From: Candidatus Yanofskybacteria bacterium RIFCSPLOWO2_01_FULL_42_49
GTDB taxonomy: Bacteria; Patescibacteriota; Minisyncoccia; 2-02-FULL-40-12; GWA2-44-9
Reading direction: 5' to 3'
DNA length: 53,519 bases
NCBI GenBank assembly: GCA_001795615.1
Contig: MGKI01000008.1
Span: forward strand, 1 to 53,519
Within the stretch, counting starts at the first letter, position 1; every line of letters begins with the position of its first letter. Position numbers and translations under genes: made by a program. Shown piece after piece: positions 8,372 through 48,145 of this stretch. Under the pieces are notes generated by a model. The model ran no database searches and had not been told where the DNA came from. It saw only the letters and a list, made by a program, of their open reading frames with translations.

Positions 8372-10204
8372 GTGAAACCAAATAAAATCATCGCCGTATT
8401 TTTCTTAGCTGGAGTCAGTGTGTTGTCTTTTTTTACCGTTAAAGCATTGGCTGATATTTCCGATATCCAATACCCCGTCTCCCAGCTTGGAAATTGCACA
8501 AGTGAAACCGACTGCCGAAGCTATTGCGATAAACCCGAAAACATTACGGCTTGTTTGAATTTTGCCGAACAGAACAATTTGATGTCTAAAGAAGAGATCG
8601 AAATGGCTAAAAAGTTCTCGGCCGTTGGTAATAAAGGCCCCGGCGGATGCACGGGTAAGGATTCTTGTGAAACATATTGCAACGATATTTCTCATATCGA
8701 CGAGTGCGTTTCGTTTGCCGAACAAAACAACTTAATGCCGCCGGACAAATTACGCGAAGCTCAAAAGGTCCGCGATGCTATAAAGCGGGGTGCCAAACCT
8801 CCGGCTTGCGGCAGCAAAAAATCCTGTGACAGTTACTGTGAAGATCCAAGCCACATGGAAGAATGCATTACCTTTGCCTCTGAGGCCGGCCTGATGGAAG
8901 GCAAGGAGAAAGAAGACGCCCAAAAAATGCTATCAGCCATGAAAAAAGGAATTAAACCACCGCCTTGCCGAGGCAAACAGGCTTGCGATGAATATTGCCA
9001 ACAGCCGGACAACATGGAAACATGCATGAATTTTGCAATTGAAGCCGGATTTATGGGCGATAAAGAAAAAGAAGACGCCCAAAAAATGCTATCAGCGATC
9101 AAGAAAGGAGTAAGGCCGCCTAATTGCAGAGGGCGGGAGGAATGCGACAGTTATTGCCAAAGCGATGAACATTTTGAAGAATGCACTAATTTTGCGGAAG
9201 CGGCCGGTTTTATGAATGCCAGTGACGCGGAAATGGCGAGAAAAACAAAAGGCAAGGGCCCCGGCGGATGCAAGGGTAAAGAAGAGTGCGAATCATTTTG
9301 CAATAATCCGTCCAACCAGGAAACGTGTTTTAAGTTCGCTGAAGAGAATGGCATGATACCGGAAGAAGAACTCCAAAAAATGAAAGAGGGGATGAGCCGA
9401 ATGCGCGAAGATGTTGATAAAATTCCGAGTGAAGCAAAAGACTGTCTGAAATCTGCTCTGGGAGAAGAAACGGTTAATAAAATCCGGTCGGGAGAACTTA
9501 CGCCTGGACCTCAACTGGGAAATGCAATTCAAGATTGTTTCCGAAAAATGCCTCAGCAACCGGAAAATATGCGCCTGCCTGCCGGCAGGCAGGGCGGGCA
9601 AGGTGAACAAGAAGGAATGCCGCCACCGGAAGGAAGAGAGTTTCGCGGCGGTCCCGGAGGTTGTTCTACTCCCGAAGAATGTCAAGATTACTGCTCCCAA
9701 AATCCGGAAGCTTGTCAAAATTTTCAAGAACCTGAACATGGACAAAGACCGATGGGTCCACCCGGTCCGGATCAAAATTTCCAACCGCCGAGAGGGCCAA
9801 GAGAAGGGGAAGAACCGCACGAGCCGCCTTTATTTGAACGGCGGATGCCATCTGGTGAACAGATGCCTCCGAAATTTCAGCGGCCAGAACAAGAGATGTA
9901 TAGACCCGGCACTGAGGAAGGATCTTACCCTCCAAGTTATGATGGCCAGCGGCCACCACAAGAATTCAATCAGCCCATGATGCCCAACCAACCGCCGATT
10001 GGAAGTGGGGTAATTCCGCCACCTGAATTTGACCGTCAGGTACCCATGGAACAATTCCAGCCATCCGAACCCATGCCACAGATAGAACAGCAACCGCAAG
10101 GAGAGATAGCGCCACCACCTCCTCCACCGTCAGAGCCGGCGCCTCAATCTCTGTTAAACAACAAATACCTCGGGGCTATTTTCAGACTCCTTTCGGGTAA
10201 CTGA
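8372..10204 (+). CDS. Secreted cysteine-rich tandem-repeat protein with a Pro/Gln/Glu-rich tail
   Basis: 610 aa with a GTG start and a signal/TM segment. About 7 repeats of about 52 aa follow the pattern C-x6-C-x3-C-x9-C-x2-FAE(Q/A)N.LM. The C-terminal 200 aa are P/Q/E-rich. Confidence 0.75.
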   Translation: MKPNKIIAVFFLAGVSVLSFFTVKALADISDIQYPVSQLGNCTSETDCRSYCDKPENITACLNFAEQNNLMSKEEIEMAKKFSAVGNKGPGGCTGKDSCETYCNDISHIDECVSFAEQNNLMPPDKLREAQKVRDAIKRGAKPPACGSKKSCDSYCEDPSHMEECITFASEAGLMEGKEKEDAQKMLSAMKKGIKPPPCRGKQACDEYCQQPDNMETCMNFAIEAGFMGDKEKEDAQKMLSAIKKGVRPPNCRGREECDSYCQSDEHFEECTNFAEAAGFMNASDAEMARKTKGKGPGGCKGKEECESFCNNPSNQETCFKFAEENGMIPEEELQKMKEGMSRMREDVDKIPSEAKDCLKSALGEETVNKIRSGELTPGPQLGNAIQDCFRKMPQQPENMRLPAGRQGGQGEQEGMPPPEGREFRGGPGGCSTPEECQDYCSQNPEACQNFQEPEHGQRPMGPPGPDQNFQPPRGPREGEEPHEPPLFERRMPSGEQMPPKFQRPEQEMYRPGTEEGSYPPSYDGQRPPQEFNQPMMPNQPPIGSGVIPPPEFDRQVPMEQFQPSEPMPQIEQQPQGEIAPPPPPPSEPAPQSLLNNKYLGAIFRLLSGN

Positions 10205-12180: not shown

Positions 12181-12232
12181 GGATATCCCTTTTTTAAAAA
12201 ACCGTTGAGTGGTATACTATCATAAACAAATT

Positions 12233-12385
12233 AAAATCTCTAATCTCGAAACCCTAATCTCTAAATAATATCAAAATTCAAAATTATGTCCCCTTGGGAC
12301 ATCTCCCGAAGGGAGAAAAATTTTAAAACTTTTGAGATTTGACATTTGAGTTTATTTAGAAATTAGAGATTAGAATTTAGAGATT
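12233..12385. repeat. AT-rich palindromic 'word' element, family I copy 1, with two GC mini-hairpins at its centre
   Basis: The left arm aaatctctaatctcgaaaccctaatctctaaa is complementary to the right arm tttagaaattagagattagaatttagagatt. The centre holds atgtccc-ctt-gggacat and ctccc-gaa-gggag. Its arms are almost identical to those of 33314-33435. Confidence 0.85.
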
Positions 12386-12395
12386 ATCGTATAAC

Positions 12396-18260: not shown

Positions 18261-18374
18261 ATTAAAGTTCGTGCTTCGGTTAAAAAAATGTGTATTAATT
18301 GTAAGTTAGTAAGGCGAAAAGGTCGCCTCTATTGTTTGTGCAAAAACCCTAAACACAAGCAACGACAAGGATAA
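18261..18374 (+). CDS. rpmJ: Ribosomal protein L36, copy 1 (ATT in the start position)
   Basis: Not in the ORF track because it is under 60 aa. The reading ATT AAA GTT CGT ... gives (I/M)[36 protein letters not shown]. There is no in-frame ATG, GTG or TTG upstream before a stop. Confidence 0.7.
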
Positions 18375-18388
18375 ATAATGTGTAACAC

Positions 18389-18482: not shown

Positions 18483-18596
18483 ATGAAGGTACGAGCTTCG
18501 GTTAAAAAAATGTGTATTAATTGTAAATTAGTAAGGCGAAAGGGTCGCCTCTATTGTTTGTGTAAAAATCCTAAACACAAGCAACGACAAGGATAA
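18483..18596 (+). CDS. rpmJ: Ribosomal protein L36, copy 2 (ATG start)
   Basis: [37 protein letters not shown]. Has the Zn-ribbon CxxC...CxC...H pattern. Confidence 0.9.
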
Positions 18597-18636
18597 ACTC
18601 GATATTTCGAAATTTCGATATGTCGATATTTCAATA

Positions 18637-19023
18637 ATGCCACGCATTAGCGGTATCGTTATTCCCGATAATAAAAAAATACTGTATTCATTGCCATATC
18701 TATATGGCATAGGTTTGCTTTCGAGCAGAATTATTCTTAAGACAGCCAACATTGACCCCAATAAAATAGCAAAGGATCTTTCGTCTGATGAACTGAACAA
18801 GATACAAAAAATTATAGATAAAACTTATAGGGTAGAGGGTGACCTTAAAAAAGAGATAAGCCAAAACATTAAACACCTGAAAGAAGTCGGATCATGGCGT
18901 GGTTTAAGGCATTCCAGACGTCTTCCTATTAAAGGAAGAAGCAAAACAAATTCCAGAACAACAAGAGGTAATGTGAGAAGGACCATGGGTTCTGGCAGAA
19001 AATCAACATCGGAAAAGACTTAA
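18637..19023 (+). CDS. rpsM: Ribosomal protein S13
   Basis: MPRISGIVIPDNKKILYSLPYLYGIGL... with a basic C-terminus. Confidence 0.93.
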   Translation: MPRISGIVIPDNKKILYSLPYLYGIGLLSSRIILKTANIDPNKIAKDLSSDELNKIQKIIDKTYRVEGDLKKEISQNIKHLKEVGSWRGLRHSRRLPIKGRSKTNSRTTRGNVRRTMGSGRKSTSEKT

Positions 19024-25790: not shown

Positions 25791-25910
25791 ATTAGAAAAA
25801 TTAACCTAATTATTCTAATTAATCTAATTATTCTAAACTTTTGAAATTTATAATTTGAGATTCCTGCCTGCCGGCAGGCAGGTGTTTAGAAATTAGAAAT
25901 TAGAAATTTA
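25791..25910. repeat. AT-rich word hairpin with a central 20-bp GC palindrome
   Basis: ctaattattctaattaatctaattattctaaa faces tttagaaattagaaattagaaattt. The centre is cctgcctgccggcaggcagg (25863-25882). Confidence 0.8.
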
Positions 25911-32263: not shown

Positions 32264-33315
32264 ATTTTAACTCCCATGATTTTCAAAATAAAAAGAAGCG
32301 AAAATGGGGTCGCTTTTTTTTGCTTGCCGGATTTTTAGCCGTAAGCTATATAATTTTTAACACGGCTCTATTTAATAAAGAATTTGAAATAAAAAACGAA
32401 TTCGCCGAAGAAGATAAGTTTGAAGCGGCCTGGCTCAAGAAATTTGCCGGTTTATTGTTCTTCAATCAAAACCACGCCGAAGAAATAGACAAGAACTACA
32501 TCATGCCAGAAAAAGAGCCAAACCGACTGGACATACTGATCCTCGGCATAAGGGGAGAAGGCGACGAGAACGCTGAAGAAGGCGGAGCATTGCTTACCGA
32601 TACAATGATGGTGTTTAGCCATGACCAACTTACCAAAAAATCTTCTCTAGTTTCAATCCCCCGGGATTTCTATGTCAAAATAGGCTCAAATAAAAATAAA
32701 ATAAACTCCGCTTACGAATACGGACTTCTGAGAAAAGAAGGGGCTGATTACGCAAAGAAATTAGTATCTCAAATAACAGGCGTTTATATAGATAACGCCG
32801 TCGTGGTAGATTTCTCTTCGTTTGAAAAATTAATAGACCAGCTCAGAGGCATAGATATAACTCTGACCAAATCATTCCGCGAAGAAGGCCAGTGGGGATA
32901 TGCTTTTGAACTGCCGGCAGGCGAAAACCACCTGAACGGACAAAATGCTTTGTATTATGTCCGCTCGAGATATTCGTCTAACGATTTTGACCGCGCATTC
33001 AGACAACAGCAGGTATTGTTCGCGATAAAAAACAAAGTAACAACCCTGCATTTGATTTCTGATCCTATAAAAATTCTATCCGTAATTAATACATTAAGCC
33101 AAAACATAAAAACCGACATCAACATCTGGGATGTGAAAGAAATAATTGATCTTGCCAAAGAAGTGGACACCTCGCCGGCCATGTTTAAGAAAGAAGTCTT
33201 GTCAACGGAAAACCTTCTCTACCAGTCAACTGGCCCTCAAGGAGCTTATATTCTATTGCCGCAAGGAGATAGTTTTGACCAAATCAAGCAGTTATTTCAA
33301 GAAATAATAAAATAA
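32251..33315 (+). CDS. LytR-CpsA-Psr (LCP) family protein
   Basis: An N-terminal TM segment, then LILGIRGEG...ALLTDTMMV...SIPRDFYV and Y.RSRY. Confidence 0.85.
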   Translation: MDQLDFNSHDFQNKKKRKWGRFFLLAGFLAVSYIIFNTALFNKEFEIKNEFAEEDKFEAAWLKKFAGLLFFNQNHAEEIDKNYIMPEKEPNRLDILILGIRGEGDENAEEGGALLTDTMMVFSHDQLTKKSSLVSIPRDFYVKIGSNKNKINSAYEYGLLRKEGADYAKKLVSQITGVYIDNAVVVDFSSFEKLIDQLRGIDITLTKSFREEGQWGYAFELPAGENHLNGQNALYYVRSRYSSNDFDRAFRQQQVLFAIKNKVTTLHLISDPIKILSVINTLSQNIKTDINIWDVKEIIDLAKEVDTSPAMFKKEVLSTENLLYQSTGPQGAYILLPQGDSFDQIKQLFQEIIK

Positions 33316-33435
33316 ATCTCTAATCTCAAAACCCTAATCTCTAAACAAATCCAAAAACCCAAATCTCAAAAACGTTTTGAATTTTGATATTTGAGATTAT
33401 TTAGAGATTAGAAATTAGAATTTAGAGATTAGAAT
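33314..33435. repeat. AT-rich palindromic 'word' element, family I copy 2
   Basis: The left arm aaatctctaatctcaaaaccctaatctctaaa is 30/31 identical to 12234-12264. The right arm is ...tttagagattagaaattagaatttagagattagaat. It fills the whole spacer from stop codon to start codon. Confidence 0.9.
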
Positions 33436-33436
33436 A

Positions 33437-34237
33437 GTGACTTCCATCATCATCGTCAACTACAAAAATCCGCCGTTATTGAGATTGTGTTTGTCGTCGT
33501 TAAAAAGAGCCCTCTCTGCTAACTTCAAACACGAGATATTGGTCGTTGATATTGCTTCTATTCCCGAAACAAGAAATGTGATCAAAGAATTTCCAGGGGT
33601 CAAAATAACAACATTCAAAGAAAACATCGGCTACACAAAAGGCGTTAATGAGGGGGTCAAGGCTTCATCTGGAGACTATATACTGATACTTAATCCCGAC
33701 ATCGTGCCCATGACAAAATCCATTGAGGGGCTTACTTCATACCTGGCAGCCAATACCAATATCGGCCTTGCCGGACCTCGACTCTTAAATTTTGACGGTT
33801 CGGTCCAAAATTCCGCCTTCCGATATTATACGCCCTTAACAGTACTCTGCCGGCGCAGTCCTTTAGGCCATACCCCTTTCGGTAAAAAAATATTGAACAA
33901 ATTCGTAATGGCAGATAAAAAATTAAACGCACCCTCGGAAGTTGAATGGCTGATGGGTTCTGCTATGCTGGCTTCTCGAAAGGCAATAGATAAGGTGGGA
34001 CTGATGGACGAAAATTTTTTTATGTACATGAGCGATGTTGACTGGGCAAGGCGGTTCTGGGAAAATGGATTCAAGGTGGCATATTATCCGTTTTCGGAAA
34101 TGTACCATTATCACAAGAGAAGTTCGAAAGGCCGCTTCGGTCCATTAGATATTTTCATGAATAAACAGAGCAGATTGCATTTAGTTGATGCGGTAAGATA
34201 CTTTAGGAAATACGGAATAAAAATTTCTAATACCTAA
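33437..34237 (+). CDS. Glycosyltransferase family 2
   Basis: GTG start. Contains TSIIIVNYKNPPLLRLCLSSL, ILVVD and GYTKGVNEG. Confidence 0.85.
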   Translation: MTSIIIVNYKNPPLLRLCLSSLKRALSANFKHEILVVDIASIPETRNVIKEFPGVKITTFKENIGYTKGVNEGVKASSGDYILILNPDIVPMTKSIEGLTSYLAANTNIGLAGPRLLNFDGSVQNSAFRYYTPLTVLCRRSPLGHTPFGKKILNKFVMADKKLNAPSEVEWLMGSAMLASRKAIDKVGLMDENFFMYMSDVDWARRFWENGFKVAYYPFSEMYHYHKRSSKGRFGPLDIFMNKQSRLHLVDAVRYFRKYGIKISNT

Positions 34238-34343
34238 TATCTAATTACTAATGAAATGTCTAATGCTCAAATGTCCAATTAGAGATTTGAAATTAAACAT
34301 TTAGAATTTTATTAGAAACTAGGAATTAGAAATTAGATATTTT
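34221..34343. repeat. AT-rich palindromic 'word' element, family II copy 1
   Basis: aaatttctaata...ctaattactaatgaaatgtctaat faces ...attagaaactaggaattagaaattagatatt. The left arm begins inside the last codons of the GT2 gene. It shares words with 42513-42630. Confidence 0.8.
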
Positions 34344-35648: not shown

Positions 35649-36137
35649 ATGAAAATTATTATACTTCAAAATATTAAAGGACTCGGACAGATAGGGGACA
35701 TTAAGAATGTCTCTGACGGTTATGCCAGAAATTTTTTGTTACCGAGAAAAATGGCTAAACTGGCAACTGAAGCTTCAATAAAAGAAGTTGACGCGTTAAA
35801 GAAAAAACTAGAAGTGGCTCAGAAGCTAGAGAAAGAAAATGCTTCAAAGGTAGCCGAACAATTGAAAGATGTCGTGTTGGAATTTACAAGGAAAGCGACC
35901 AAGACTGGCAAAATCTATTCGGCTGTTACCAAGGAGGATATCGCTGAAATACTGACCAAACAACTCTCCGCCGAAGGCGGGCCAGCCTTTGGCTGGAAGA
36001 TTGAACCAAACTCAGTTAATCTTGAGGGGCATGATGGAGGCCACATCAAACAGCTCGGTGAACATCTCGTCAAAATAGAACTCGCGCCAGACGTGGTTGC
36101 GGAGGTCAAGGTCAAAATTTCACAGGAAGAAAAATAA
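35649..36137 (+). CDS. rplI: Ribosomal protein L9
   Basis: MKIIILQNIKGLGQIGDIKNVSDGYARNFLLPRKMA. At 162 aa it is longer than usual because of an in-frame hairpin segment. Confidence 0.92.
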   Translation: MKIIILQNIKGLGQIGDIKNVSDGYARNFLLPRKMAKLATEASIKEVDALKKKLEVAQKLEKENASKVAEQLKDVVLEFTRKATKTGKIYSAVTKEDIAEILTKQLSAEGGPAFGWKIEPNSVNLEGHDGGHIKQLGEHLVKIELAPDVVAEVKVKISQEEK

Positions 36138-36157
36138 TTCCGCCTTCTTTTCGCTTC

Positions 36158-36306
36158 AGACTCTAGCCATCCTCGACACGCCTCCGGTTCCCCCGCGAGG
36201 GACCTCGGCTACTTTCGCCCAACCTTTTCTCGGGCAGTTAAACGATTATACTGCCCTCGACCGTGCAAAAGGTTGGATCTCTAGTGTCTCGTCATGACTA
36301 GAGTCT
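36158..36306 (+). ncRNA. Structured element 'A' (unknown class), homologous to 46599-46762
   Basis: Closing stem agactctag/ctagagtct, with inner helices cccaacctttt/aaaaggttgg and gggcagt/actgccc. The 118-nt core is about 80-85% identical to the reverse complement of 46621-46738, and differences are concentrated in paired positions. Stops occur in all frames shared by the two copies. Confidence 0.6.
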
Positions 36307-36781
36307 TAAGCTACCTTGCTTGGCGTTCGACAGAAACTTCTCTGAAAACCTGTCACTATTGGAATCCATCGCCAGCTGGCGGACCGGTTAAACCTCGTCC
36401 TCTTCCTCAACTCATCAAGTGATTCGAAGATAATAAGGCCTCGCTTCCTTGATGGCTTAGCTTGTACTTGTTGGCCAGCGAGAAGCCATCCCTATTTGAA
36501 TCACTATGACAAATAGATAGCAGTTGCAGATGAGCGACGCGATTTTTCTGGGAAACCGAGTCGGGGATGTCAGGTTCGGTCGAGCTCAGCTCGATCCGCA
36601 TGGCCTGACAGGGGTGACCCCGAGCGGTCAGAAAAATTAGGAGTGAATCGCAACTGCTCTATGAGGAGTCCGTGATGAAAATGAGGATGGCTTCGAACGA
36701 AAGATGAGGAATCGTGATGAGAAGACGACAAGGTCGAACAAAAATATATATCTTTTACGCTATTCATTGTATAATTAAATC
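36307..36781 (+). other. ORF-free, GC-enriched, highly self-complementary region (candidate ncRNA or long leader)
   Basis: No credible ORF. Hand count in 36541-36600 is 34/60 G+C. Nested long-range helices are agcagttgc/gcaactgct, atttttctg/cagaaaaat, tgtcagg/cctgaca and tcgagc/gctcga. Four tgaGGA/ttaGGA motifs lie in 36638-36712. Confidence 0.5.
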
Positions 36782-42512: not shown

Positions 42513-42630
42513 AAATTTCTAATTACTAATTCCTAATTTCTAAATATAATGTCTAATCCTTAAATTTCTAAAATTGGTCATTAGAAATTGGGGATTTGAT
42601 TAGAAATTAGATATTAGAAATTAGTAATTC
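42513..42630. repeat. AT-rich palindromic 'word' element, family II copy 2
   Basis: aaatttctaattactaattcctaatttctaaatataatgtctaat faces attagaaattagatattagaaattagtaatt. It shares aaatttctaat, ctaattactaat, atgtctaat and attagaaattagatatt with 34221-34343. Confidence 0.8.
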
Positions 42631-45386: not shown

Positions 45387-46766
45387 CTACAAGTAGTCAT
45401 TTGGATTTACTGTATTATTATAATTGAAATACAGTTGACCATTCTTTTCATTAATATAGGTGAAAAACTCTTTATATATGCTCAAGTGGACATGAGAACC
45501 AGTTGAAAATCCAGTTGAGCCCTCATAACCAATTATATCACCGGCTTTAACCTGGCTGCCAACTCTTACAAACTCAAAAGCGCTCAGGTGGCCGTAAACA
45601 CTGACTAAATCATACGGCGGATGCTTGATAGCCACCCAATTTCCCCATCCGTCATTTTTGCCGTTAGCAACAACCTCTCCGTCGCCTATCGCCTTAACCG
45701 GGCTACCGTAACCGGAAGCCATATCAATGCCGTTGTGAGGCGCTCCGCCGTAAGGTCCGCGCCTTGAGTTACATCGAGCATATCTGGTACATCCGTATCC
45801 TTGAGTAATTCTATAGTCTTCTTCCGGCCACTTGAAAAGATCGGTTCCCTTTTTAGGCAAGTTGTGCGCTTCCACACGAAGAATATACAGTCCACCCTGT
45901 ATAATCTTGGTCTCAATCTCTTTCATCTCCGTAAAAAAGAGCGACTGTTTTCTCTCCACTTCTTCAAGCAGCCTTTGATACTCGGCTTCCTGTCCTTTGG
46001 TAACTTTTAGCAAGCCATCTTTTTCTTTTTGGGTACCGCCTAAAGCTAGTTTCTGACTAGACTGCTGGCGATTTAAATTTTCAAGTTCCCGCTTTTTATT
46101 TTCCAGGTTAGATTTATGGTTTTCGTAAGCGTTTTTTGTGGAACGCAAATCGTTGACTAACGAAAGCAGACTTTCGCTGACACTGGTTGCCTGCTGAACC
46201 CGGTTGAGAAAATCAGAGATGTTGGCATTCTTCATCATGGCAACAAGCAGGCTCTCTCTGTCTTGCCGATAAAGTTCAAGCAATAGTTCCCCAATTGCGC
46301 TTTTCTGATATTCAATCCTGCCTTGAGTGGTATATATTTCGTCAGTCGTGTTTTGTATTTCTATGCCCGTGCTGTTGATTTTTTTTATAGTGATATTTAT
46401 TTGGGTTTTAAGGCTATTTATCTGATTCTGGAGAATTGAAATTTCTTTATTCAACGATTCAGCATTGGCGTGTTCTTTAGCAATATTCTGGCGATATTGT
46501 TCGGCTTGCTGTTCAAGCCGTTCTATCTCCTGGCGCAATTGGGAGATTCGTTCATCGTCGGTTTGGGCAGTAGCTGCTGGCACAAAAAAAATCAGCGCAA
46601 AAAAAAGAAGCAAGCCAATTAGAGACACTAGAGACCCAGCCCTTTGCATGGTCGAGGATAGTATAATCGTTTCACTGTCCGAGAAAGGGCTGGGCGAAAG
46701 TAGCCGAGGTTGCACGCTGGGCAACCGGAGGCGTGTCGAAAATTGGCTTGCTTCTTTTTTTTTCAT
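45387..46766 (-). CDS. M23 (LytM-type) peptidase with a coiled-coil region
   Basis: HNGIDMA, GWGNWVAIKH, YGHLS and GSHVHLSI. The longest ORF starts at 46766, where its ATG overlaps the gltX TGA as ATGA. An alternative start at 46649 (MQRAGSLVSLIGLLLFF) would exclude structured element B. Confidence 0.85.
   Translation of the reverse strand: MKKKEASQFSTRLRLPSVQPRLLSPSPFSDSETIILSSTMQRAGSLVSLIGLLLFFALIFFVPAATAQTDDERISQLRQEIERLEQQAEQYRQNIAKEHANAESLNKEISILQNQINSLKTQINITIKKINSTGIEIQNTTDEIYTTQGRIEYQKSAIGELLLELYRQDRESLLVAMMKNANISDFLNRVQQATSVSESLLSLVNDLRSTKNAYENHKSNLENKKRELENLNRQQSSQKLALGGTQKEKDGLLKVTKGQEAEYQRLLEEVERKQSLFFTEMKEIETKIIQGGLYILRVEAHNLPKKGTDLFKWPEEDYRITQGYGCTRYARCNSRRGPYGGAPHNGIDMASGYGSPVKAIGDGEVVANGKNDGWGNWVAIKHPPYDLVSVYGHLSAFEFVRVGSQVKAGDIIGYEGSTGFSTGSHVHLSIYKEFFTYINEKNGQLYFNYNNTVNPNDYL
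46599..46762 (-). ncRNA. Structured element 'B', second copy of the 36158-36306 module
   Basis: A perfect 22-bp closing stem (aaaaaaaagaagcaagccaatt / aattggcttgcttctttttttt) encloses the conserved core. The inner helix is cccagcccttt/aaagggctggg. It lies between the gltX stop and the M23 signal peptide, in the same sense relative to its flanks as copy A. Confidence 0.6.
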
Positions 46767-48145
46767 GGCAACTTATTGATTGCTGTGTCTATTCTTCTCA
46801 AGACGGTCTCTTTTGTCAGTATAGCCGCTACATCAACCGGATCCGGAGACTTTTCTTTGCCTGTTAACGCAACCCTGAACGGCCAATATACCAATCCCCT
46901 GCTTGCCCCGAGTGGAATCGAGGGATCGCCCAGTTTTTTGCTTAAATCATCCAGAGCCAACCGCAAGGAGTCTTTATCAGAACCGTTCCAATTTTCAATA
47001 ACCCTTTTTGTTTCATTCAAGGAGTTTGTAATTTCATCTTTTGTGAATTTTTTCCAATTCAAAAGTTCAGAATCATAACTTGGCTCTTTCCATAAGTAAC
47101 TAAAATCATTTATGTCAGACAACTTATTTAACCGTTCCGTGATAAGCGGTATAGCCACGTCAAGCATTTCCGGCAGATTTGTTAATTGTTTAATTGTTAA
47201 ATTGTTTAATTGTTTTATGTATTGCGAATTTATCCAGTTCAATTTTTCTACATTAAAAACTGCGCCAGCCTTGTGGATTTTTCCGAGCTCAAACTCGTTT
47301 ACCATTTCCTCTTTTGTTATGATTTCTTTACTGAAGGTGTAACTTAATCCCCCGAGAAAATTTAAAAGCGCTTCCGGTAAATAATCTTGTTTATAATCCA
47401 AAGTTCCCGTACCGCCATGGCGTTTAGAAAGTTTTGACCGATCTAATCCTAAAACAAGAGGAAGGTGGGCAAAGAAAGGAATTTTAAAACCAAGAGCTTC
47501 GTATATTAAAATTTGCTTAGGAGTATTGGAGATATGATCCTCTCCTCGAATGACATGGGTAATGCCCATCTCAGCGTCGTCCGCCACAACAGCAAAATTA
47601 TAAAGCGGATCTTCAATAGCTCGAGCAATCGAAAAATCACCCAACAACGCCTCCTGAAACTCTATTCTCCCTCTGATCTGATCGTCGAAGGAAATAATGC
47701 GGCCAGAGCTTTCATTTACCGCTAAGCGAATAATGCCGCCGGGTATTTTATTTTTGTCCGTATTTTTATGCTCGCAGAAATGGCGAGGCGCCTCTTTTCT
47801 GGCTTCTTGCTGTTGCCGTTCCGCTTCCAGATCTTCTTGGCTGTGGTGACAATAAAATGCTTTCCCTTCGCTAAGTAATCTCTCCAACAACTCTTTATGT
47901 TTATGTAAATTGTCGCTTTGCCTGACAAAATCTCCGTTTGGCATTAAATCTAACCAAGCCAGTGCCTCTCTTATGCCGTTTTCGGACTCTTTGGTTGAGC
48001 GAATTTTGTCTGTGTCCTCAATCCGCACATAAAAATCTCCGCCATTTTTACGGGCAAAGAGCCAGTTATAAAGCGCAGATTGAGCATTGCCGACATGGAA
48101 AGATCCGGTCGGCGACGGAGCTATCCGTACTTTAACTTTATCCAT
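46763..48145 (-). CDS. gltX: Glutamyl-tRNA synthetase
   Basis: VRIAPSPTGSFHVGNAQSALYNW (HIGH-type), RIEDTD and KLSKRHG (KMSKS). Confidence 0.93.
   Translation of the reverse strand: MDKVKVRIAPSPTGSFHVGNAQSALYNWLFARKNGGDFYVRIEDTDKIRSTKESENGIREALAWLDLMPNGDFVRQSDNLHKHKELLERLLSEGKAFYCHHSQEDLEAERQQQEARKEAPRHFCEHKNTDKNKIPGGIIRLAVNESSGRIISFDDQIRGRIEFQEALLGDFSIARAIEDPLYNFAVVADDAEMGITHVIRGEDHISNTPKQILIYEALGFKIPFFAHLPLVLGLDRSKLSKRHGGTGTLDYKQDYLPEALLNFLGGLSYTFSKEIITKEEMVNEFELGKIHKAGAVFNVEKLNWINSQYIKQLNNLTIKQLTNLPEMLDVAIPLITERLNKLSDINDFSYLWKEPSYDSELLNWKKFTKDEITNSLNETKRVIENWNGSDKDSLRLALDDLSKKLGDPSIPLGASRGLVYWPFRVALTGKEKSPDPVDVAAILTKETVLRRIDTAINKLP

What the first reader, a model, noticed from the sequence alone, without database searches (positions are those of the whole stretch)
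36158..36306. A ~150-nt structured module present twice, with compensatory substitutions: candidate novel RNA or mobile structured element
The plus strand at 36158-36306 (copy A, just after rplI) and the minus strand at 46599-46762 (copy B, just after gltX) share a 118-nt core.

Three blocks are identical:
- tcgacacgcctccgg
- acctcggctactttcgc
- tctctagtgtctc

The differences fall in pairs across predicted stems:
- A has cccaAccTttt / aaaAggTtgg where B has cccaGccCttt / aaaGggCtggg.
- A has ggGcagt/actgcCc where B has ggAcagt/actatCc (the latter with one mismatch).
- The hairpin ggttcccccgcgagggacc is replaced by ggttgcccagcgtgcaacc.

Each copy is closed by its own unrelated stem: 9 bp in A, and 22 bp perfect in B. 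No reading frame is shared, because each frame that is open in one copy has a stop in the other. The differences are not adenine-specific, so this is not a DGR template/variable pair. I could not match it to riboswitch or RNA families I know (ydaO, ykkC, M-box, yybP, T-box, 6S, SRP, RNase P, tmRNA).
Basis: seen in the sequence. Interest (0 to 1): 0.8.

Follow-up and report, generated by a model that had tools for sequence, protein, structure and literature searches.

The report
Dispersed structured repeat in a CPR bacterium
The two look-alike ~160-base stretches are real copies of a previously undescribed, non-coding, strongly folding repeat that comes and goes between genes in Candidatus Yanofskybacteria genomes; it most resembles the small structured repeat elements known from other bacteria, and what it does is still unknown.

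Summary
Copy A (36153-36311, +) and copy B (46599-46762, -) share a 118-nt core that is 87% identical. Eight of the 15 differences form four compensatory pairs. No Rfam family matches on either strand.

A metagenome scan and syntenic loci added nine more distinct copies from related Candidatus Yanofskybacteria. Across all copies, 6 core pairs and 5 closing-stem pairs change on both sides while staying paired (0 of 500 shuffles reach this).

The closing stems are homologous and covary, not "unrelated". One reading frame is open in both copies, though the substitutions are not protein-like.

The element is present or absent at syntenic sites in relatives and occurs in either orientation next to unrelated genes. 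It recombines into mosaics, lies beside other repeat modules, and breaks assemblies. Copy B sits in frame inside the 5' end of the M23 peptidase gene.

Best reading: a lineage-specific, non-autonomous structured repeat of the ERIC/bcr1/REPIN kind, probably transcribed. A multi-copy small-RNA gene is the main rival. The transcribed strand, the way it spreads and its function are unresolved.

The parts
36153..36311 (+). Copy A of the element ('X'), complete: closing helix plus three-way-junction core. It starts 16 nt after the rplI stop codon.
   Evidence: (138.9 bits)
36153..36169 (+). Copy A, 5' arm of the closing helix (GCTTCAGACTCTAGCCA). It pairs with 36295-36311 (15 of 17 pairs).
   Evidence: homologous and covarying with other copies
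36295..36311 (+). Copy A, 3' arm of the closing helix (TGACTAGAGTCTTAAGC).
36175..36179 (+). P1 5' strand (GACAC). It pairs with 36284-36288 (GTGTC). Invariant in all 11 copies, so covariation says nothing about it.
36180..36209 (+). P2 domain: GCC/GGC (36180-82 with 36207-09) enclosing the hairpin GGTTCC/GGGACC (36186-91 with 36199-204), which has a 7-nt loop CCNGCGW. This is the most conserved part of the element.
   Evidence: one compensatory pair, C-G to G-C in copy B
36210..36216 (+). Junction J2/3 (TACTTTC), invariant. In locus L139 a 20-nt palindrome is inserted here.
36217..36278 (+). P3 domain: long helix 36217-36229 with 36265-36278 (three covarying pairs), an internal loop, and the apical hairpin GGGCAGT/ACTGCCC (36232-38 with 36250-56; two covarying pairs) with a conserved 11-12-nt loop.
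36279..36283 (+). Junction J3/1 (CTCTA), invariant.
46599..46762 (-). Copy B of the element, complete. It starts 1 nt after the gltX stop codon and lies inside the called 5' end of the M23 peptidase ORF.
   Evidence: 141 bits
46741..46762 (-). Copy B, 5' arm of the perfect 22-bp closing helix (AAAAAAAAGAAGCAAGCCAATT). The inner 16 nt are homologous to the closing stem of other copies. The outer A8 pairs with T8.
   Evidence: (I7)
46599..46620 (-). Copy B, 3' arm (AATTGGCTTGCTTCTTTTTTTT). It also encodes LIGLLLFF of the M23 signal peptide. Stem plus T8 has the form of an intrinsic terminator.
46621..46740 (-). Copy B core between the arms: exactly 120 nt, open in the M23 frame.
46647..46649 (-). 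ATG inside copy B (in the 3' strand of P3). Starting here gives a 420-aa M23 peptidase with an ordinary signal peptide (MQRAGSLVSLIGLLLFFALIFFVPAATAQ), the same length as orthologues (415-426 aa).
36325..36435 (.). 'Module 2', a separate repeat found next to X in either orientation in other loci. The alternative haplotype L122 diverges from the window at 36331.
36470..36700 (.). 'Module Y', a second structured repeat with its own covariation. It also occurs without X (L140, L136).

Best explanation
X is one family of lineage-specific, non-coding, structure-bearing interspersed repeats in Candidatus Yanofskybacteria (Parcubacteria, CPR).

Anatomy: each copy is about 160-190 nt. A 15-22-bp closing helix carries a three-way junction made of P1, a P2 hairpin domain and a long P3 with an apical hairpin.

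Shown:
- Copies are gained and lost at intergenic sites.
- Several copies start at or within a few tens of bases of the stop codon of the upstream gene.
- Copies recombine with each other, giving mosaics.
- Copies cluster with other repeat modules.
- The fold is kept by compensatory change.

Inferred:
- The element spreads as DNA, as a non-autonomous unit whose hairpin is what the machinery (or recombination) recognises. This is the pattern of MITE, REPIN and ERIC-type elements.
- Once in place it is transcribed with the neighbouring gene.
- There the closing helix acts as a stable 3' structure or terminator. In copy B it is 22 bp followed by U8.
- Copy B landed in the first codons of the M23 peptidase gene. 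It was tolerated because the insert is in frame and stop-free and also offers an internal ATG in front of a workable signal peptide.
For: Real family:
- 11 distinct copies score 97-150 bits with the covariance model. There are no other hits in about 230 kb.

Structure kept:
- Core: 97.6% of cells paired, and 6 pairs (17 cells) changed on both sides. None of 500 shuffles reaches this, and slid controls give at most 2.
- With the closing stem included: 9 such pairs, again 0 of 500.

Gain and loss at syntenic sites:
- gltX and M23 overlap or lie 22 nt apart in L140, L141, L144 and L146, but X-B sits between them in the window.
- rplI and corA are 31 nt apart in L139, against 645 nt with X-A in the window.
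- L139 instead has a copy between the S41 peptidase gene and rplI.
- Five relatives have no X in 94 kb.

No fixed context or partner:
- Copies lie in either orientation next to unrelated genes (ligA, priA/def, LOG/MBL, yraN, S1).
- No transposase, reverse transcriptase or other constant partner is nearby.

Mosaic and decaying copies:
- The two P3 variants and the loop variants are shuffled across flank types.
- L139 combines the left half of one variant with the right half of another. This gives broken pairs, and it also carries a 20-nt insertion.

Repeat behaviour:
- Contigs from independent assemblies end inside X-A and X-B.
- An alternative haplotype diverges 20 nt beyond X-A.
- X adjoins other repeat modules in varying order and orientation.

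Copy B in M23:
- Orthologues are 415-426 aa, against the 459-aa ORF here.
- The 120 nt between the arms keep the frame.
Against: - No target-site duplication could be established. The TCGCTC direct repeats flank some copies only.
- No autonomous partner or enzyme was found.
- X copies in different organisms are 81-87% identical, while housekeeping genes are 64-84% identical. The P2 and junction half is almost invariant. This fits purifying selection on a functional RNA as well as recent spread.
- Compensatory change in 'terminal inverted repeats' is not what transposase-bound ends usually show.
- No transcription data are available, and the strand is undecided.
- Arm-to-arm template switching in DNA could mimic RNA covariation.
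- Only about 11 copies are known, from a narrow lineage.
Confidence: 0.5

Rival explanations
1. X is a multi-copy gene for a trans-acting small structured RNA (a riboregulator or the RNA part of a ribonucleoprotein). It duplicates and relocates, and the sequence is conserved because the RNA itself works.
For: - The P1, P2 and junction sequences are invariant in all 11 copies. Variation is concentrated in P3 and the closing stem, where it is compensatory.
- X is at least as conserved between organisms as most housekeeping genes.
- In L128 and L130 a further hairpin followed by a T-run lies downstream.
- Copies antisense to both neighbours (L127, L132, L134) would need their own transcription.
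Against: - X is absent from five related genomes' loci (94 kb) and is present or absent at syntenic sites.
- One copy sits inside a coding region (B).
- One copy (L139) has several broken pairs and an insertion in the invariant junction.
- No conserved promoter was seen upstream on either strand.
- Assemblies break at X.
Confidence: 0.25
2. X is an RNA-level mobile or catalytic element. Examples would be a new self-cleaving ribozyme carried by a repeat, or a small retro-mobile RNA that invades hairpins or stop-codon-proximal sites.
For: - The architecture, a three-way junction with invariant junction strands on a long variable closing helix, resembles small ribozymes.
- The copies are dispersed.
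- Related hairpin elements (Z) and some X copies begin exactly at a TAG stop codon with the motif TAGTCGCTC (5 of 5 sites).
Against: - There is no match to any ribozyme family in Rfam.
- No reverse transcriptase or other partner is nearby.
- No sign of cleavage can be read from DNA.
- The support is entirely by analogy.
Confidence: 0.1
3. X is a cis-regulatory leader or riboswitch for the downstream genes (corA after copy A, the M23 peptidase after copy B).
For: - It is a junctioned fold with conserved unpaired strands.
- Copy A is upstream of a Mg2+ transporter gene.
- Copy B hides the M23 start codon in P3.
Against: - Downstream genes differ at every copy, and three copies are antisense to both neighbours.
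- Copy A is 470 nt from corA, with other repeats in between.
- Orthologous corA and M23 genes in relatives lack X.
Confidence: 0.03
4. X encodes a small protein, or is primarily a coding insertion.
For: - One frame is open in both window copies. In each copy that frame is in phase with the stop codon of the upstream gene.
- Copy B is read through by the called M23 ORF.
Against: - The shared frame has no start codon.
- Codon differences are 9 non-synonymous against 4 synonymous.
- Subtypes differ by a 1-nt indel.
- A search of 5.8 billion proteins with all frames found only the window's own M23 ORF.
Confidence: 0.02

Closest known systems
ERIC/IRU and bcr1-type structured intergenic repeats (Enterobacteriaceae; Bacillus cereus group). 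Comparison from my own knowledge, not tested here.
   Same: - Size of 120-160 nt, non-coding, dispersed copies.
- Present or absent at orthologous intergenic sites.
- Usually within transcribed regions near gene ends.
- A long imperfect palindrome predicted to fold as RNA, with compensatory changes between copies.
- No adjacent transposase.
   Different: - There is no sequence similarity.
- X is not a simple palindrome. It carries a non-palindromic 118-nt three-way-junction core with invariant junction strands.
- It is found only in a narrow CPR lineage.
- Its target duplication is not established (bcr1 has one).
REP / REPIN / BIME elements mobilised by RAYT (Y1/HUH) transposases. Comparison from my own knowledge.
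   Same: - Hairpin-forming extragenic repeats whose stems evolve by compensatory change.
- They occur just after genes, form mosaics with other short motifs in varying orientation, and act as terminators or mRNA stabilisers.
- X likewise sits in mosaics with module 2, Y and W.
   Different: - REPs are 20-40 nt (REPINs about 100 nt), are pure palindromes and have a conserved 5' tetranucleotide.
- X is larger and branched.
- No RAYT gene was looked for or seen.
MITEs such as Correia/NEMIS and RUP. Comparison from my own knowledge.
   Same: - Small, non-autonomous and multi-copy, with inverted termini.
- Insertion polymorphism.
- They can supply terminators or alter neighbouring gene ends.
   Different: - MITE termini are conserved protein-binding sites flanked by a clear target duplication, and they match a parent IS.
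- X's termini vary and covary.
- No duplication or parent element is established.
Rickettsia palindromic elements (RPE). Comparison from my own knowledge.
   Same: A palindromic repeat of about 100-150 nt that can sit in frame inside protein-coding genes. Copy B does this: 120 nt in frame in the M23 peptidase 5' end.
   Different: Only one of 11 X copies is in a coding region. The others are intergenic. There is no sequence relation.

Membership tests
Any Rfam 15 RNA family (riboswitches, ribozymes, 6S, SRP, RNase P, tmRNA, 5S, omega/HEARO RNA, group II intron domains and others) | Score to the family covariance model at or near its gathering threshold | tested here: not met
   No match on either strand at E <= 10 around either copy. 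Nothing at X in the whole window at E <= 1.
MITE | Small, non-coding, multiple dispersed copies | tested here: met
   11 distinct copies of about 160-190 nt in different contexts. Not coding.
MITE | Presence or absence at orthologous sites | tested here: met
   The gltX-M23 and rplI-corA junctions are empty in relatives and filled in the window.
MITE | Conserved terminal inverted repeats | tested here: inconclusive
   Inverted termini exist (the closing helix), but they vary between copies with compensating changes. Only the outermost GCTTCA(A)G / CTTGAAGC is shared.
MITE | Target-site duplication | tested here: inconclusive
   TCGCTC direct repeats flank L128, L130 and the Z elements. They are the same at every site and are weak or absent at A, B, L131 and L139. 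No sufficiently close empty site was available.
MITE | Parent autonomous element with the same ends | not tested
No transposase was found among the neighbours scanned.
REP/REPIN-RAYT | Short (20-40 nt) palindromic units, often as inverted doublets, with a RAYT gene in the genome | tested here: not met
   X has a 118-nt non-palindromic branched core. The presence of a RAYT gene was not tested.
IS200/IS605-derived elements (PATE) | Similar subterminal hairpins at both ends, and insertion 3' of a fixed short target without duplication | tested here: inconclusive
   The two internal hairpins (P2, P3b) are unrelated in sequence. A fixed left-flank motif TCGCTC recurs, and a similar motif ends the element.
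Riboswitch / cis-regulatory leader | Constant position upstream of a functionally coherent gene set | tested here: not met
   Neighbouring genes and orientation differ at each copy.
DGR template/variable repeat | Adenine-specific differences between the two copies, and a reverse transcriptase nearby | tested here: not met
   The 15 differences fall at 5 G, 4 A, 3 C and 3 T of copy A. No reverse transcriptase was found among the neighbours scanned.
Retron msr/msd | Non-coding RNA with flanking inverted repeats immediately upstream of a retron reverse transcriptase | tested here: not met
   The downstream genes are corA and the M23 peptidase. No reverse transcriptase lies near any copy.
Intrinsic terminator | G+C-rich stem directly followed by a U-tract at a gene end | tested here: inconclusive
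   Copy B has a 22-bp stem followed by T8, with A8 on the other side, so it is bidirectional in form. Copy A and most other copies lack a T-run. The enclosed 'loop' of 120 nt is far outside normal terminators.
In-frame palindromic insertion in genes (RPE-like) | The element lies inside an intact ORF without breaking the frame | tested here: met
   Met for copy B only. The 459-aa ORF reads through it, there are 120 nt between the arms, and orthologues are about 40 aa shorter.

The most novel reading that the evidence does not exclude
X, together with the sister modules Y and Z, could represent a new class of small structured RNAs specific to CPR bacteria that propagate themselves. This could be a new self-processing ribozyme, or an RNA or single-stranded-DNA element that targets stop-codon-proximal sites. 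The recurring junction TAG|TCGCTC suggests this: there the element seems to supply the stop codon. On this reading the invariant junction strands are a catalytic or protein-binding core, not just recently copied sequence.
Probability: 0.15. Interest if true: 0.75.

Novelty: new member of a known kind. Interest (0 to 1): 0.45.

Why it matters
CPR/Patescibacteria genomes are about 1 Mb and tightly packed. Intergenic regions of 500-650 nt filled with several families of folding, recombining repeats are therefore unexpected. Almost nothing is published on non-coding or repeat elements in this radiation: three full-text searches found nothing relevant.

- If X is mobile, it marks an unknown mobilisation system in these symbionts. 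It would also explain strain-level rearrangements and assembly breaks in widely used aquifer metagenomes.
- If X is a functional RNA, it is a new family with a well-defined, testable fold.
- In either case copy B shows such an element remodelling the start of an essential-looking cell-wall hydrolase gene.

Tried and rejected
None of the hits carried the other blocks. The scan was wasted.
2. I searched 5.8 billion proteins with a concatenation of all reading frames of X, to catch spurious ORFs over other copies. It found only the window's own M23 ORF.
3. X and Y are absent from IMG/VR viral contigs (exact blocks). X is also absent from GenBank phages and PLSDB plasmids by blastn.
4. The closest M23 orthologue contigs (L142, L143) are rearranged or lack X, so they gave no clean empty site. 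The members of the P0001 cluster were only truncated versions.
5. No strain of the same species lacking X-B was found.
6. L133, a GC-rich metagenome hit, is a chance match: the model does not score it.
7. Rejected as identities for X: small ORF, DGR, retron, riboswitch. The reasons are in the membership table.
8. I also looked by eye for resemblance to 5S rRNA, SRP RNA and 16S helix 45. Only short chance similarities appeared, and the Rfam models are silent.
9. An inversion of the 10.3-kb segment between the inverted copies A and B is rejected, because gene order matches relatives.

Full report
**1. What is in the window**

Copy A lies on the + strand just after rplI (35649-36137). Copy B lies on the - strand just after gltX (46763-48145). 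The shared core, 36173-36290 against 46739-46622, is 118 nt with 15 differences, or 87.3% identity. The conserved blocks occur nowhere else in the window, with about 0 matches expected by chance.

Both copies fold into the same shape: a closing helix, then P1 (GACAC/GTGTC), then a three-way junction. The junction carries a P2 hairpin domain and a long P3 that ends in a second hairpin. The z-scores against shuffles are -4.2 and -8.7. Of the 15 differences:
- eight form four double changes that keep pairs;
- two turn a wobble or mismatch into a Watson-Crick pair;
- one breaks a pair;
- four are in loops or an internal loop.

Rfam 15 has nothing on either strand, even at E <= 10.

**2. More copies**

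A genome-collection scan with a 17-mer returned only chance hits. A two-block pattern scan of the JGI metagenomes returned 12 loci. Eleven are true copies, eight of them distinct sequences, and one is a chance hit.

The M23 peptidase encoded next to copy B has orthologues named Candidatus Yanofskybacteria. Fetching their loci gave one more copy, in L139. A covariance model built on the core scores all 11 distinct copies at 97-150 bits and nothing else in about 230 kb.

**3. The closing stem belongs to the element**

There are two subtypes:
- Type i comprises A, B, L128, L130, L131 and L139.
- Type ii comprises L127, L129, L132, L134 and L136. It has two extra 7-bp helices below P1.

The outermost GCTTCA(A)G ... 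CTTGAAGC is common to both subtypes. Within type i the closing stems align, for example B AAGAAGCAAGCCA with L131 AAGAACCCAGCCA. The 3' arms change in step, TGGCTTGCTTCTT against TGGCTGGGTTCTT. A's stem is 15 of 17 pairs (36153-36169 with 36295-36311). B's 22 bp are the family stem lengthened by A8/T8.

**4. Covariation**

| Alignment | Cells paired | Pairs changed on both sides | Shuffles reaching this | Slid controls |
|---|---|---|---|---|
| 11 cores | 97.6% | 6 (17 cells) | 0 of 500 | at most 2 |
| 6 type-i copies with closing stem | 94.4% | 9 (5 in the closing stem; one position shows C-G, U-A and A-U) | 0 of 500 | not quoted |

P1 and the GCC/GGC part of P2 never vary, so covariation says nothing about them.

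Two caveats apply. The sequences are few and related. In DNA palindromes, arm-to-arm template switching can also keep arms complementary without any RNA-level selection (an inference from general knowledge).

**5. Strand**

Sporadic one-sided changes are mostly C·A on the given strand, which is G·U on the complement (5 events), against 2 G·U events on the given strand. An invariant G·U closes P3 on the given strand. The transcribed or functional strand is therefore undecided.

**6. Not coding, and not a leader**

It lacks a start codon, shows 9 non-synonymous against 4 synonymous codon differences, and is broken by a 1-nt indel between subtypes. A protein search with all frames found only the window's own M23 ORF.

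Neighbouring genes differ at every copy: rplI/corA, gltX/M23, ligA, priA/def, LOG/MBL-fold, yraN, S1 and PIN. Three copies are antisense to both neighbours. No transposase, reverse transcriptase or other constant partner is present.

**7. Gain and loss**

Gene order around both copies is conserved in relatives.
- In L140 and L144 gltX and M23 overlap (TAATG). In L141 and L146 they are 22 and 9 nt apart. The window has X-B there.
- In L139 rplI and corA are 31 nt apart. The window has 645 nt there, starting with X-A.
- L139 instead carries a copy between the S41 peptidase gene and rplI.
- L132 has a copy between priA and def.
- Five relatives have none in 94 kb.

X copies from different organisms are 81-87% identical. 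Housekeeping genes of the same organisms are 64-84% identical at the DNA level. This means either recent spread or strong constraint.

**8. Repeat behaviour**

- Contigs from independent assemblies stop inside X-A (L120, L121, L125, L126) and inside X-B (L150-L152).
- A second haplotype (L122-L124, three assemblies) is identical through X-A and diverges at 36331.
- The P3 variants (AACCUUUU/AAAAGGUU against AGCCCUUU/AAAGGGCU) and the loop variants are shuffled across flank types.
- L139 joins the left half of one variant to the right half of the other. This leaves mismatches, and it also has a 20-nt palindrome inserted in the otherwise invariant J2/3.
- The rest of the 645-nt spacer after X-A consists of other repeats: 'module 2' and a 'Y' module with its own covariation. 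These recur with or without X, in either orientation, in other loci.

**9. Copy B and the M23 peptidase**

The called ORF (459 aa) starts at an ATG overlapping the gltX stop and reads through X-B. Orthologues are 415-426 aa, with a 24-30-residue signal peptide before AQTDDERI.

Two readings fit:
- Translation starts at the ATG inside P3 (46649-46647). This gives MQRAGSLVSLIGLLLFFALIFFVPAATAQ and a 420-aa protein.
- The ancestral, translationally coupled start is kept and X-B is translated as a 40-residue insertion. The 120 nt between the arms are in frame and stop-free, whereas the same frame has a stop in copy A.

Either way, part of the signal peptide (LIGLLLFF) is encoded by the element's 3' arm. 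This is inference; no expression data exist.

**10. A wider chassis**

The 9-mer TAGTCGCTC occurs five independent times in 233 kb of Yanofskybacteria DNA. Each time its TAG is the stop codon of the upstream gene (LOG, rplI of L141, a 245-aa protein, ligA, and an ORF in L128). Each time it is followed by a long hairpin element: X type i, X type ii, or unrelated 'Z' hairpins of about 330 nt. The far side of each ends in TCTYGCTCC.

RplI of L141 ends SQE*, where the window and L139 have SQEEK* and SQEIK*. This fits the element supplying the stop codon. I could not decide whether TCGCTC is a target, a duplication or part of the elements.

**11. Interpretation**

The evidence best fits a lineage-specific, non-autonomous, structure-dependent interspersed repeat of the general kind of ERIC, bcr1, REPIN/BIME and MITEs. 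It is probably transcribed with its neighbours, and in some positions it has terminator-like form (copy B).

The main rival is a multi-copy small-RNA gene. It is favoured by the near-invariance of P2 and the junctions and by the high conservation between organisms. It is disfavoured by the patchy distribution, the copy inside a gene, the decayed copy and the lack of promoters.

A ribozyme-like or RNA-mediated mobile element cannot be excluded. The mobility mechanism, the strand and the function are not shown.

Noticed in passing
window 9574-9593 and 25863-25882; L139 19138-19157; 35 IMG/VR contigs (L155-L189): The 20-nt perfect palindrome CCTGCCTGCCGGCAGGCAGG occurs twice in the window. It is inserted precisely, with no duplication, into the invariant junction of the X copy in L139. 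It also occurs at 42 sites in 35 viral contigs with GC content from 38 to 68%. These sites include the inside of a tRNA D-loop (L186) and a position between the anticodon and T arms of a tRNA-like sequence (L156, L179). It is either a tiny, very widespread palindromic insertion or a library/assembly artefact.
   Followed up: partly
window 36470-36700; L140 16407-16604; L136 2588-2904; L127 2945-3138: 'Module Y' is a second dispersed structured repeat. It has nested helices (UUUUUCUG/CAGAAAAA, CCGAGYCGGRG/CYCCGRGCGG, UGUCAGG/CCUGACA) and an apical hairpin that changes sequence but stays paired. There is no Rfam hit and no IMG/VR hit. It occurs with or without X.
   Followed up: partly
window 36325-36435; L122 5810-5900; L132, L134, L136: 'Module 2' (about 85 nt) lies 40-100 nt from X in several loci, in either orientation. 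On its other side it is followed by either the Y body or another module (W). This gives a BIME-like mosaic.
   Followed up: partly
L140 15698-16030, L141 19150-18830 (-), L134 674-330 (-), L136 353 (-), L128 122: The motif TAGTCGCTC occurs at 5 of 5 sites with its TAG serving as the stop codon of the upstream gene. It is followed by long hairpin elements (X or unrelated 'Z' elements of about 330 nt) that end in TCTYGCTCC. RplI of L141 is two residues shorter than in relatives, as if the element supplied the stop codon.
   Followed up: partly
L122-L124 (from window position 36331 onward): Three independent assemblies carry a second haplotype. It is identical through rplI and X-A, then has a version of module 2 about 75% identical to the window's, and then different genes (a 145-aa protein and a LysM-M23 peptidase) that are absent from the window.
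   Followed up: partly
window 12230-12386, 33315-33430, 34222-34340, 42514-42629, 25799-25909, 18180-18219/28008-28037: Many intergenic regions hold long A+T-rich hairpins built from heptamer-like repeats (TTAGAAA / TTAGAGA and complements). They are probably the usual terminators of this genome. They give weak false hits to plant miRNA models in Rfam.
   Followed up: no
window 18261-18375 and 18483-18597: Two 115-nt copies, 93% identical, 222 nt apart in an apparently non-coding stretch before the ORF at 18637.
   Followed up: no
window 8372-10204: A 610-aa ORF with internal 159-nt tandem repeats (8795-9112) and repeated Cys-rich KGPGGC...C motifs (8633, 9254). The 20-nt palindrome lies inside it, and 20 nt is not a multiple of three.
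   Followed up: no
window 36138-36290 and 46762-46622: In both copies, the frame that is open through the core is in phase with the stop codon of the upstream gene (rplI TAA, gltX TGA). The chance of this is about 1 in 9. It is probably a coincidence, since the substitutions are not protein-like.
   Followed up: yes
L120, L121, L125, L126 (X-A); L150, L151, L152 (X-B): Contigs from JGI, ENA and Logan assemblies end inside or at the edge of the element. X is therefore a recurrent assembly break point in these aquifer metagenomes.
   Followed up: partly
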